Below, piece by piece: positions 1,456 through 2,401 of a stretch of 3,982 nucleotides of DNA (position 1 is the first letter of the stretch; every line of letters begins with the position of its first letter). The translations under genes and the position numbers were made by a program. Source of the DNA: Escherichia coli. GTDB taxonomy: Bacteria > Pseudomonadota > Gammaproteobacteria > Enterobacterales > Enterobacteriaceae. Under the pieces are notes generated by a model. It was not told the origin of the DNA. It saw only the letters and a program-made list of their open reading frames with translations, and searched no databases. The stretch lies in the NCBI RefSeq assembly GCF_003334255.1, contig NZ_QOWU01000112.1. One strand, written 5' to 3'.

Positions 1456-2401
1456 ACGCCCACTGGTTATAAACACGCAGCTGGCAATGAAAATTGGCTT
1501 AAACGAAGCCATTGTTTTGCAACAACTGCACTACTGGTTGAGAGATACCAACTCCGGCATGGAATGTGATGGTGTTCGCTGGATTTATAACACAACGGAA
1601 CAATGGCTGGAACAGTTCCCATTCTGGTCAGAGTCAACGTTAAAGCGCGCGTTTGCAAGTCTGAAAACGCTGGGGCTTTTGCGTTGTGAAAAGCTCAATA
1701 AATCAAAGCGCGATATGACCAATTTCTACACGATCAACTATGGGAGCGAGCTTTTAGATGGTGGCAAATTGAGCGAATCCATCGGTTCAAAATGCGCCGC
1801 TCCATCAGGTCAAAATGACACGATGGAAGAGGTCAAAATGAAACGCTCCATTGGTTCAAAACGACCCAATGTCATCGGGTCAAAATGGCCTGATGATCTT
1901 ACAGAGAATACAACAGAGATTACTACAGAGAATAAAAACACTTTTCGTCCGGAAGCTTCGCAACCGGACCCGCAGACGACTGAACAGGATTTTTTAACCC
2001 GGAACTCCGACGCGGTTGTGTTTAGTGCGAAAAAACGCCAGTGGGGTAGCAGGGAGGATTTGGCGTGTGCGCAGTGGATCTGGGGGCGGATCGTGGGTCT
2101 CTACGAACAGGCAGCCAGTGATGATGGCGAGATCATGCGACCAAAAGAGCCTAACTGGACTGCCTGGGCCAATGACGTGCGCACAATGCGGATGCTGGAT
2201 GGCAGAAGCCACAGACAAATTTGCGAAATGTTTGGTCGGGTTCAGCGAGATCCATTCTGGGTAAAAAACATCATGAGCCCGTCAAAGCTCCGCGAAAAAT
2301 GGGACGAACTGGTCATCCGCCTGGGACGTTCACCTGTACAGCGTTGTGTTAATCATATTTCTGAACCGGATACAGAAATTCCGCCTGGTTTCAGAGGATA
2401 A
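1436..2401 (+). CDS. Phage replication initiator (lambda O-like role; N-terminal winged-helix replisome-organizer/DnaD-like domain), about 321 aa from ATG 1436
   Basis: N-terminus MSLLFAERPLVINTQLAMKIGLNEAIVLQQLHYWL...STLKRAFASLKTLGLL looks like an initiator/replisome-organizer winged helix. The central low-complexity linker (IGSK x3, TEN/TEI repeats) is encoded by iteron and AT-rich repeats, as lambda ori lies inside O. The track start at 1382 is a TTG; the first in-frame ATG at 1436 is preferred, so the start is uncertain. Confidence 0.7.
   Translation: MSLLFAERPLVINTQLAMKIGLNEAIVLQQLHYWLRDTNSGMECDGVRWIYNTTEQWLEQFPFWSESTLKRAFASLKTLGLLRCEKLNKSKRDMTNFYTINYGSELLDGGKLSESIGSKCAAPSGQNDTMEEVKMKRSIGSKRPNVIGSKWPDDLTENTTEITTENKNTFRPEASQPDPQTTEQDFLTRNSDAVVFSAKKRQWGSREDLACAQWIWGRIVGLYEQAASDDGEIMRPKEPNWTAWANDVRTMRMLDGRSHRQICEMFGRVQRDPFWVKNIMSPSKLREKWDELVIRLGRSPVQRCVNHISEPDTEIPPGFRG
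1778..1887. repeat. Five iterons (consensus about TCCATCGGTTCAAAATG) at 23-24 bp spacing: candidate replication origin inside the initiator gene
   Basis: 15-mer cores at 1780-1794 CATCGGTTCAAAATG, 1803-1817 CATCAGGTCAAAATG, 1826-1840 GAAGAGGTCAAAATG, 1849-1863 CATTGGTTCAAAACG and 1873-1887 CATCGGGTCAAAATG. Spacing is 23, 23, 23 and 24 bp, about two helical turns. Confidence 0.6.
1900..1935. repeat. AT-rich 12-bp direct repeat x3 right after the iterons; candidate DNA-unwinding element
   Basis: TACAGAGAATAC (1900-1911), AACAGAGATTAC (1912-1923), TACAGAGAATAA (1924-1935), followed by AAAAACACTTTT. The position matches the AT-rich region that follows the iterons in lambda-type origins. Confidence 0.45.

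What the first reader, a model, noticed from the sequence alone, without database searches (positions are those of the whole stretch)
1778..1935. Candidate replication origin embedded in the initiator gene: five iterons at two-helical-turn spacing plus an AT-rich triple repeat
Five 15-17 bp repeats with consensus CATCGGTTCAAAATG occur at 23-24 bp intervals, immediately followed by three 12-bp AT-rich repeats. This mirrors the lambda ori arrangement (iterons plus AT-rich region inside O), but the iteron sequence is different and the initiator N-terminus looks like a DnaD/replisome-organizer type rather than classical lambda O. The DNA repeats also create the peptide repeats IGSK and TEN/TEI in the initiator linker.
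Basis: partly seen in the sequence, partly recalled or inferred. Interest (0 to 1): 0.5.

Follow-up and report, generated by a model that had tools for sequence, protein, structure and literature searches.

The report
Replication origin inside prophage initiator gene
The repeats are real and almost certainly form the replication origin of a lambda-like E. coli prophage, written into the flexible middle of the gene for its own initiator protein; this layout is well known, but this origin type is uncharacterised and recurs in phages of many bacterial phyla.

Summary
Confirmed. Window 1755-1893 holds six head-to-tail 23-bp units, five clear and one degenerate. Their core is TCCATCrGkTCAAAATG and they are spaced 23,23,23,23,24 bp. 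Three 12-bp ACAGAGAwTAC repeats follow in an A-rich stretch (GC 0.31), then a GC-rich dyad.

All of it lies in the part of a 321-aa initiator gene (1436-2401) that encodes a predicted disordered linker.

The constraint is on DNA, not protein:
- The same repeat is read in all three frames.
- Against a 68%-identical relative, synonymous changes are 3/52 codons in 1751-1985 versus 82/156 elsewhere (p=3e-10), while amino-acid changes are equally frequent.

The N-terminal winged-helix domain has no Pfam or NCBIfam model. Its best structural match is RepA_N plasmid initiators. It occurs in phages of Proteobacteria, Firmicutes, Bacteroidetes and Campylobacterota. In all 18 loci examined it is followed by repeats about 21-24 bp apart with a conserved A-tract centre. 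CAGA[G/T]A repeats follow in most of them.

The C-terminal domain is lambda-O-like (34% identity). No P, DnaC or DnaB gene follows.

This is an ordinary kind of element (oriλ, pSK41 and SPP1 oriL types) in an uncharacterised, widespread family. Function is inferred, not tested.

The parts
1436..2401 (+). Initiator gene (321 aa) that contains the origin
   Evidence: ORF. PHROG phrog_391 'replication initiation O-like', E 1e-91. Annotated as DNA replication protein O in phage PhiR42_1 and as hypothetical protein in RefSeq. No Pfam or NCBIfam hit.
1436..1750 (+). Coding region of the N-terminal winged-helix domain (aa 1-105), the presumed iteron-binding domain
1755..1777 (+). Iteron 0, degenerate (TAGATGGTGGCAAATTGAGCGAA), in register 23 bp before iteron 1
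   Evidence: Register analysis. The same position is a good iteron in mEp460_4F5 and Kp4882-3.
1778..1800 (+). Iteron 1, TCCATCGGTTCAAAATGCGCCGC
1801..1823 (+). Iteron 2, TCCATCAGGTCAAAATGACACGA; palindromic arms CATCAGGTCA / TGACACGATG
   Evidence: (I1).
1824..1846 (+). Iteron 3, TGGAAGAGGTCAAAATGAAACGC; its left block is degenerate
1847..1870 (+). Iteron 4, TCCATTGGTTCAAAACGACCCAAT; arms CATTGG...CCAATG
   Evidence: (I5). Nearly invariant among the 65 gene variants aligned.
1871..1893 (+). Iteron 5, GTCATCGGGTCAAAATGGCCTGA
   Evidence: Nearly invariant among the 65 gene variants aligned.
1894..1945 (+). A-rich, low-GC stretch with three 12-bp ACAGAGAwTAC repeats (1901, 1913, 1925); presumed DNA-unwinding element
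   Evidence: GC is 0.31 here versus 0.49 in the rest of the gene. Third-position diversity is about 0.01-0.02. Copy number varies from 2 to 4 among relatives. The CAGA[G/T]A motif is conserved across phyla.
1947..1969 (+). GC-rich dyad GTCCGGAAGCTTCGCAACCGGAC on the right flank of the A-rich stretch; role unknown
   Evidence: It lies inside the zone of frozen synonymous sites. As a hairpin it is not exceptional (z -1.5). Comparable GC-rich dyads appear at the same place in Kp4882-3 and SopranoGao (my reading).
1763..2032 (+). Coding region of the predicted disordered interdomain linker (aa 110-199), which houses the origin
   Evidence: In the AF2 full-length model, aa 110-199 have pLDDT below 50 and no secondary structure.
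2033..2323 (+). Coding region of the helical C-terminal domain, homologous to the lambda O C-terminal domain
   Evidence: BLASTP against lambda O: 34% identity over aa 147-294, E 1e-26. Helices at 206-296 in the model.
2336..2398 (+). C-terminal tail VQRCVNHISEPDTEIPPGFRG, which resembles the extreme C-terminus of E. coli DnaT
   Evidence: phmmer against PDB: 2ru8, 6aep and 9zbt_D (DnaT), residues 159-179, E 0.013-0.044.

Best explanation
The segment at about 1755-1985 is the replication origin of a Qin-like lambdoid prophage of E. coli. It is embedded in the linker-coding middle of the initiator gene.

Shown here:
- Six abutting 23-bp imperfectly palindromic iterons are followed by an A-rich stretch with three ACAGAGAwTAC repeats and then a GC-rich dyad.
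- All of it is under DNA-level rather than protein-level constraint.
- It is physically and evolutionarily coupled to the N-terminal winged-helix domain of the protein that the same gene encodes.

Inferred by analogy with lambda O/oriλ, pSK41 Rep and SPP1 G38P/oriL:
- Dimers of the N-terminal domain bind the palindromic iterons. The A-tract in the centre of each unit and the 23-bp (2.2-turn) phasing let the array bend or wrap into an 'O-some'-like complex.
- The strain melts the adjacent A-rich CAGAGA stretch.
- The lambda-O-like C-terminal domain, with its DnaT-like tail, brings in the host DnaB helicase. No phage P, DnaC or DnaB gene follows, so recruitment must use host factors directly.
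- Rightward transcription from the promoter-like site at 650-678 runs through the origin, as pR transcription does in lambda.
For: 1. The repeats are statistically real and form the only such cluster in the phage genome.

2. The period of 23 is not a multiple of 3. The same DNA unit is therefore translated as IGSK, SGQN and EVKM, so selection for a peptide repeat cannot explain it.

3. Among 65 aligned gene variants (66 distinct sequences recovered from 84 loci), third-codon-position diversity drops from 0.2-0.45 to 0.01-0.1 across about 1751-1985. Amino-acid diversity stays at 0.1-0.24. Against the 68%-identical mEp460_4F5 clade, synonymous changes are 3/52 codons inside versus 82/156 outside (Fisher p=2.9e-10). 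Amino-acid changes are 24/79 versus 70/241 (p=0.89).

4. Within the 23-nt register, the TCCATC and TCAAAATG blocks are nearly invariant. Variation sits at consensus-degenerate positions and in the right arm.

5. The region encodes a predicted disordered linker between a confident winged-helix N-domain and a helical C-domain.

6. tblastn of the N-domain finds 155 phage records. In all 18 loci inspected, repeats about 21-24 bp apart begin right after the N-domain coding part. The hosts were E. coli, Klebsiella, Erwinia, Pseudomonas, Stenotrophomonas, Burkholderia, Vibrio, Staphylococcus, Bacillus, Listeria, Lactobacillus, Flavobacterium, Bacteroides and Helicobacter. The centre CAAAATG/CAAATTG is kept and the arms differ. 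CAGA[G/T]A-type repeats follow in most loci. In 12 of the 18 the lag-21-to-24 self-identity exceeds every other block of the locus and all 500 shuffles.

7. In GC-rich phages the CAGAGA segment has GC3 of 0.15-0.33 against 0.66-0.77 for the rest of the gene. In Bacillus BMBtp2 and Lactobacillus phiLdb the copies fall in different frames.

8. 75 of 90 distant cluster representatives carry the translated footprint [TPS]E[TINSP][TS] about 35 aa after the domain. Its density there is eight times that in the rest of the protein.

9. The viable phage mEp460 carries the same gene and origin and has no helicase-loader gene next to it.

10. Precedents exist. oriλ lies in the middle of O, with iterons plus an AT-rich tract (PMC7466680; annotation). 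The pSK41 Rep boxes lie centrally within rep, and the central 121-199 aa act as a dispensable linker (PMC5703833). The 80α origin is embedded in ORF20 (PMC5499656).
Against: - There is no experimental evidence for binding, unwinding or autonomous replication for any member of this family. I found none in the open-access library.
- The A-rich stretch is short (about 50 bp) and only moderately AT-rich (GC 0.31).
- There is no DnaA box or IHF consensus in the region.
- The GC-rich dyad is not a significant hairpin.
- The helicase-recruitment step is unexplained because no loader gene follows.
- In 6 of the 18 relatives the arrays are short or irregular and do not pass my autocorrelation test.
- The prophage in the window carries pseudogenes nearby, so this particular copy may no longer fire.
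Confidence: 0.85

Rival explanations
1. The array binds the initiator but serves regulation rather than origin firing. It could act in autorepression, titration or handcuffing, while unwinding and helicase loading occur at another site.
For: Iterons in plasmids also act in copy control (general knowledge). SPP1 G38P binds two distant regions (cited in PMC5499656). Nothing here tests unwinding.
Against: No second iteron cluster exists in the 48.7-kb genome. A conserved low-GC stretch directly abuts the array and is itself under strong DNA-level constraint across phyla. That is what an unwinding element looks like.
Confidence: 0.06
2. The repeats are sites for a different protein or process, such as packaging (pac), partition or transcription control, that happen to lie in this gene.
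For: Pac sites and operators are also repeat arrays inside genes. No binding data exist.
Against: The array always travels with the N-terminal winged-helix domain. This holds although the C-terminal domains, neighbouring genes, packaging types and hosts all differ. The only protein constantly linked to it is the one it encodes. The phage has lambda-type Nu1/A terminase genes far away.
Confidence: 0.05
3. The low divergence of 1751-1985 reflects recent recombination between phages at a mosaic junction, and the repeats are a neutral low-complexity peptide linker.
For: Lambdoid initiator genes are mosaic at the domain boundary. Relatives with the same N-domain and origin but other C-domains exist (P0122 and P0130). 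The 12-mer copy number varies in frame.
Against: Recent exchange would lower amino-acid and synonymous differences alike. Here amino-acid changes are as frequent inside as outside (24/79 versus 70/241), while synonymous ones nearly vanish (3/52 versus 82/156). The repeat is read in three frames. The architecture and core motif persist between phages of different phyla with N-domains only 25-50% identical. GC3 is anomalous in GC-rich phages.
Confidence: 0.03

Closest known systems
Phage lambda oriλ within gene O (and the Stx-phage 933W/P27 origins)
   Same: - The origin lies in the middle of the initiator gene.
- It has 4-6 direct, internally palindromic iterons 20-24 bp apart with an A-tract centre. 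Lambda's are 20, 24 and 23 bp apart.
- An A-rich stretch lies immediately 3' of the array (PMC7466680).
[quoted passage not shown]
- The genomic position is the same, after cro and cII homologues.
   Different: - The N-terminal DNA-binding domain is unrelated in sequence: no PF04492 hit and no N-terminal BLAST match.
- The iteron sequence is different.
- There is no P gene. A DUF977/LygF gene follows instead.
- The C-terminus carries a DnaT-like tail that lambda O lacks.
RepA_N plasmid initiators (pSK41 Rep, pTZ2162 RepA; PDB 4pta, 4pt7, 4pql, 5kbj)
   Same: - The domain plan is nearly identical. pSK41 Rep is 319 aa, with a winged-helix NTD of about 120 aa and four Rep boxes centrally within the gene.
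- In pSK41 Rep the central 121-199 aa are encoded by the ori and act as a linker, followed by a host-specific CTD. A+T tracts in the boxes aid bending (PMC5703833).
- Here the protein is 321 aa and the linker is aa 110-199.
   Different: - No Pfam RepA_N hit. Sequence identity in the structural alignments is only 14-18%.
- This is a phage rather than a plasmid, and the host is Gram-negative.
- The C-terminal domain is lambda-O-like rather than the pSK41 CTD.
- The conserved CAGA[G/T]A stretch is not a described RepA_N feature, to my knowledge.
SPP1 G38P/oriL and staphylococcal phage 80α ORF20 (replisome organisers with the origin inside their own gene)
   Same: The initiator gene carries its own origin. 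For 80α, ORF20 mutants cannot be complemented in trans, and the record annotates a rep_origin inside gp20 (PMC5499656). The 80α origin also shows direct repeats followed by an AT-rich run.
   Different: There is no detectable sequence similarity to either protein. The repeats are different. Both of those phages encode a helicase loader next to the initiator.

Membership tests
Iteron-type origin embedded in the initiator gene (oriλ architecture) | Array of at least 4 direct repeats about 20-24 bp apart, all in one orientation | tested here: met
   There are five clear units plus one degenerate unit, spaced 23,23,23,23,24 bp, all on the + strand. None of 200 shuffles reaches five hits.
Iteron-type origin embedded in the initiator gene (oriλ architecture) | Each repeat has internal dyad symmetry, as expected for dimer binding | tested here: met
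   Units 2, 4 and 5 have arms matching 8/10 (or close to it) around an AAA centre (I1 and I5; sequence). Units 0, 1 and 3 are half-degenerate. Relatives show clean palindromes such as GGGCAAATTGCCC and GACCCAAATTGGGTC.
Iteron-type origin embedded in the initiator gene (oriλ architecture) | A+T-rich stretch directly adjoining the array | tested here: met
   GC is 0.31-0.33 at 1894-1945 versus 0.49 for the rest of the gene.
Iteron-type origin embedded in the initiator gene (oriλ architecture) | Lies in the part of the gene that encodes an interdomain linker | tested here: met
   aa 110-199 have pLDDT below 50 and no secondary structure. They are flanked by folded domains.
Iteron-type origin embedded in the initiator gene (oriλ architecture) | The sequence is constrained as DNA, not as protein | tested here: met
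   Synonymous changes are 3/52 codons inside versus 82/156 outside (p=3e-10). Amino-acid changes are equal. The repeat is read in three frames.
Iteron-type origin embedded in the initiator gene (oriλ architecture) | The initiator binds the repeats, and the fragment supports initiator-dependent replication | not testable with these tools
   This needs EMSA or footprinting and a replication assay. No published data were found for this family.
Lambda O protein family | N-terminal Phage_rep_O (PF04492) DNA-binding domain | tested here: not met
   No Pfam hit at all. BLASTP against lambda O aligns only aa 147-294.
Lambda O protein family | C-terminal domain homologous to that of lambda O | tested here: met
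   34% identity, E 1e-26.
Lambda O protein family | Partner gene P (helicase recruiter) immediately downstream | tested here: not met
   The next gene is DUF977/LygF (phrog_142), followed by a truncated methyltransferase. In mEp460_4F5 the next gene matches 'transcriptional activator' PHROGs.
RepA_N plasmid initiators | Sequence match to the RepA_N domain (Pfam) | tested here: not met
   No Pfam hit with E<=10 other than two spurious ones.
RepA_N plasmid initiators | Winged-helix NTD fold of RepA_N/DnaD type | tested here: met
   [not shown]
RepA_N plasmid initiators | Binding sites central in the rep gene, with the central peptide acting as a linker | tested here: met
   The layout is the same as that described for pSK41 (PMC5703833).
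SPP1 G38P / Phage_rep_org_N and DnaD (DDBH2, PF07261) replisome organisers | Sequence similarity to G38P, PF09681 or PF07261 | tested here: not met
   No Pfam hit. BLASTP against SPP1 G38P and 80α gp20 shows nothing. Only a PHROG label 'DnaD-like helicase loader' (phrog_6493) covers the N-domain.

The most novel reading that the evidence does not exclude
The winged-helix N-domain, its palindromic A-tract iterons and the CAGA[G/T]A repeats form one ancient, portable origin module. It is shared by phages of at least four bacterial phyla: Proteobacteria, Firmicutes, Bacteroidetes and Campylobacterota. The domain has more than 10,000 cluster representatives and no Pfam or NCBIfam model.

In this reading the CAGA[G/T]A repeats are not just an easily melted stretch. 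They are a second, sequence-specific element recognised in single-stranded form by the initiator or by the helicase-loading machinery.

In the E. coli members the initiator would then dispense with a phage helicase loader by using a C-terminal tail that mimics host DnaT.
Probability: 0.3. Interest if true: 0.6.

Novelty: new member of a known kind. Interest (0 to 1): 0.4.

Why it matters
An origin inside the initiator gene is textbook lambda biology, so the finding itself is expected.

What adds value is the family. RefSeq labels the protein 'hypothetical' and no Pfam or NCBIfam model covers it. Yet its N-domain and the adjoining DNA motifs recur in thousands of phage lineages from E. coli to Staphylococcus and Bacteroides.

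A simple DNA and protein signature could therefore annotate origins in many phages and prophages:
- wHTH domain
- 23-bp palindromic repeats with a CAAAATG centre
- CAGA[G/T]A repeats

This would be useful for phage engineering, for marker-frequency analyses and for understanding incompatibility and exclusion between prophages.

The absence of a P-type loader, together with the DnaT-like tail, offers a testable route to how such phages capture DnaB.

Tried and rejected
- Pfam and NCBIfam scans of the initiator found no family.
- phmmer against PDB sequences found only the DnaT-tail match and a spurious YteR hit.
- BLASTP against 80α gp20 and SPP1 G38P found no similarity, so I did not file the protein with those families.
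- The GC-rich dyad at 1947-1969 has z -1.5 as a hairpin, which is not significant. I kept it only as a conserved flank.
- There is no DnaA box or IHF consensus in the origin. The single TTWTNCACA match is at 2453, outside it.
- The promoter and terminator scan found nothing inside the origin. The only relevant site is a pR-like promoter at 650-678.
- Rfam found nothing.
- An exact-string literature search for the iteron and 12-mer sequences returned one irrelevant primer hit.
- Literature searches for this origin type found nothing on this family. The Eru-phage paper (PMC8044961) concerns other replication modules.
- I read the 2026 preprimosome paper (PMC13377028) looking for a partner of the DnaT C-terminal tail. 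It does not assign one.
- The autocorrelation test failed for 6 of the 18 relatives, whose arrays are short or irregular. For those loci the evidence is only repeat finder and visual reading.
- The peptide-repeat and recent-recombination explanations were considered and rejected (see the rival explanations).

Full report
**Context**

The window is the immunity and replication region of a Qin-like lambdoid prophage of E. coli.
- It is 99.7% identical to E. coli ATCC 8739, W and DH5alpha-lineage chromosomes and to phage PhiR42_1.
- The gene order is a dicA-like repressor (220-627, minus strand), a dicC/cro-like gene (711-941), a cII/YdaT-like gene (925-1455), the initiator (1436-2401), DUF977/LygF (2442-2864) and a truncated methyltransferase (2861-3217).
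- The initiator matches PHROG 391 'replication initiation O-like' (E 1e-91). It has no Pfam or NCBIfam hit, and RefSeq calls it a hypothetical protein.

- CATCRGKTCAAAATG (up to 3 mismatches) occurs five times, all on the + strand, at 1780, 1803, 1826, 1849 and 1873. None of 200 shuffles gives five. The repeat finder and TRF report the same period-23 array.
- ACAGAGAATACA occurs three times head to tail at 1901-1936. GC falls to 0.33 there.
- Laying the sequence out in 23-nt registers shows a sixth, degenerate unit at 1755-1777. The same position is a good iteron in relatives.
- The units abut. They are imperfect 23-bp palindromes around an AAA centre. Unit 4 has CATTGG...CCAATG where units 2 and 5 have CATCrG...CyGATG.
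- In the complete 48.7-kb PhiR42_1 genome this is the only cluster. The six other hits are scattered singletons, about what chance gives.

**The constraint is on the DNA, not on the peptide**

The period (23) is not a multiple of three. The same unit is therefore translated as IGSK, SGQN and EVKM, which no selection on a peptide repeat would produce.

I collected 84 loci that encode relatives 68-100% identical in protein. They gave 66 distinct gene sequences, of which 65 were aligned.
- Third-codon-position diversity is 0.2-0.45 over most of the gene. It falls to 0.01-0.1 between about 1751 and 1985.
- Amino-acid diversity in that stretch stays as high as elsewhere, or higher.

Against the mEp460_4F5 clade:
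- 3 of 52 same-amino-acid codons differ inside the zone, against 82 of 156 outside (Fisher p=2.9e-10).
- Amino-acid replacements are 24/79 inside against 70/241 outside (p=0.89).

Recent recombination would lower both kinds of change, so it does not explain this pattern.

Within the register, the blocks TCCATC and TCAAAATG almost never vary. Variation falls on the degenerate consensus positions and on the right arm. The 12-mer stretch is essentially invariant, although its copy number ranges from two to four, always in frame.

**Protein anatomy**

- An AF2 model of the N-terminal 115 aa, built on 93 diverse sequences, is confident (pLDDT 84) and is a winged helix.
- In the full-length model, aa 110-199 are unstructured (pLDDT below 50). 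They separate the N-domain from a helical C-domain at aa 206-296. The origin therefore sits in the coding sequence of a linker.
- The C-domain is 34% identical to the C-terminal domain of lambda O (E 1e-26). The N-domains show no similarity.

**Relatives elsewhere**

- The N-domain alone finds 155 phage records by tblastn and 10,302 cluster representatives at E<=1e-3.
- I fetched 17 further loci from phages of Klebsiella, Erwinia, Pseudomonas, Stenotrophomonas, Burkholderia, Vibrio, Staphylococcus, Bacillus, Listeria, Lactobacillus, Flavobacterium, Bacteroides and Helicobacter.
- In every one, repeats start right after the N-domain coding part, mostly 21-24 bp apart. The centre is CAAAATG or CAAATTG and the palindromic arms differ between groups: GGTCA, GGGCA, GGACA, GTGTCA, GACCCA, TACCCA, TGCA, CGCCGA.
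- In 12 of the 18 loci, self-identity at lag 21-24 exceeds every other block of the locus and all 500 shuffles. The other six have short or irregular arrays.
- CAGA[G/T]A-type repeats follow the array in most loci.
- In GC-rich phages that segment has GC3 of 0.15-0.33, against 0.66-0.77 in the rest of the gene. In Bacillus BMBtp2 and Lactobacillus phiLdb the copies are 10-13 bp apart and so fall in different frames. This motif too is therefore kept as DNA.
- At the protein level, 75 of 90 distant representatives carry its in-frame translation, [TPS]E[TINSP][TS], about 35 aa after the domain. Its density there is eight times that in the rest of the protein.
- The C-terminal domains of these proteins differ widely. 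The N-domain plus the DNA element behaves as one module that recombines with different recruitment domains.

**Mechanism**

Shown:
- the anatomy
- the DNA-level constraint
- the coupling of the element to the N-domain

Inferred from lambda O/oriλ (PMC7466680), pSK41 Rep (PMC5703833) and SPP1 G38P and 80α ORF20 (PMC5499656):
- N-domain dimers bind the iterons.
- The phased A-tracts help bend or wrap the array.
- The adjacent A-rich CAGAGA stretch melts.
- The C-domain recruits the helicase.

No P, DnaC or DnaB gene follows the initiator, either here or in the viable phage mEp460. Recruitment must therefore use host proteins. A possible handle is the last 21 residues, which resemble the extreme C-terminus of E. 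coli DnaT. I could not find what that DnaT tail binds.

**Comparison and novelty**

- The kind is well known: an iteron origin inside the initiator gene.
- This instance combines a RepA_N/DnaD-like winged helix with a lambda-O-type C-domain. It has its own iteron sequence and a conserved CAGA[G/T]A stretch.
- I found no experimental description of this family in the open-access library. That search cannot see subscription papers such as Weigel and Seitz 2006.
- I rate it a new member of a known kind, of moderate interest. The interest comes mainly from how widespread and unannotated the family is.

**Limits**

- Nothing here demonstrates binding, melting or replication.
- The A-rich stretch is short.
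- The GC-rich dyad is not a significant hairpin.
- There are no DnaA or IHF sites.
- The prophage copy in the window is flanked by pseudogenes and may be inactive.

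Noticed in passing
window 2336-2398 (last 21 aa of the initiator): The tail VQRCVNHISEPDTEIPPGFRG closely resembles the extreme C-terminus of E. coli DnaT, [21 protein letters not shown] (PDB 2ru8, 6aep, 9zbt_D res 159-179). PHROGs 18526, 3729 and 1701 match this tail alone. It may be mimicry that taps the host restart primosome or DnaB-DnaC in place of a P protein.
   Followed up: partly
window 2442-3217; L003 3939-4427: No helicase loader or helicase gene follows the initiator. 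A DUF977/LygF ('Ren-like') gene and a truncated methyltransferase follow here. In the viable phage mEp460_4F5 the next gene matches 'transcriptional activator' PHROGs.
   Followed up: partly
window 944-967: A 9-bp tandem repeat, AGGCTCGTG x2.7, lies in the cII/YdaT-like gene and encodes AREAREA. The window (3982 bp) is 9 bp longer than its 3973-bp match in ATCC 8739 and PhiR42_1. One extra copy of this unit is the likely cause, but I did not locate the indel.
   Followed up: no
window 1901-1936; L055, L063: The copy number of the 12-bp ACAGAGAwTAC repeat is polymorphic among close relatives, at 2, 3 or 4 copies and always in frame.
   Followed up: yes
proteins P0126-P0226: 41 of 149 listed cluster representatives carry two tandem copies of the N-domain in proteins of 390-880 aa, several of them from GC-rich organisms. 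After the second copy they still show iteron-like peptide footprints and a TETTTE-type motif.
   Followed up: partly
whole N-domain family (window 1436-1750): A domain with 10,302 cluster representatives at E<=1e-3 (4,527 at <=1e-10) has no Pfam-A or NCBIfam model. RefSeq names the E. coli proteins 'hypothetical'.
   Followed up: yes
window 2861-3300 and 3471-3660: The SAM-dependent methyltransferase gene is cut short at 118 aa. RefSeq marks the ORFs that follow as pseudogenes (DUF7167 with an internal stop, and a frameshifted ORF). An ISNCY transposase remnant lies a little further on in ATCC 8739. This part of the prophage is decaying.
   Followed up: no
L105 43546-43560 (- strand, side tail fibre gene of PhiR42_1): A single near-perfect iteron, CATCAGTTCAAAACG (1 mismatch), lies far from the origin. 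It is isolated and probably due to chance.
   Followed up: no
window 650-678: A sigma-70-like promoter, TTGACT-17-TATCCT, sits between the divergent dicA-like and dicC-like genes. It is the likely pR equivalent, and its transcripts would cross the origin.
   Followed up: no
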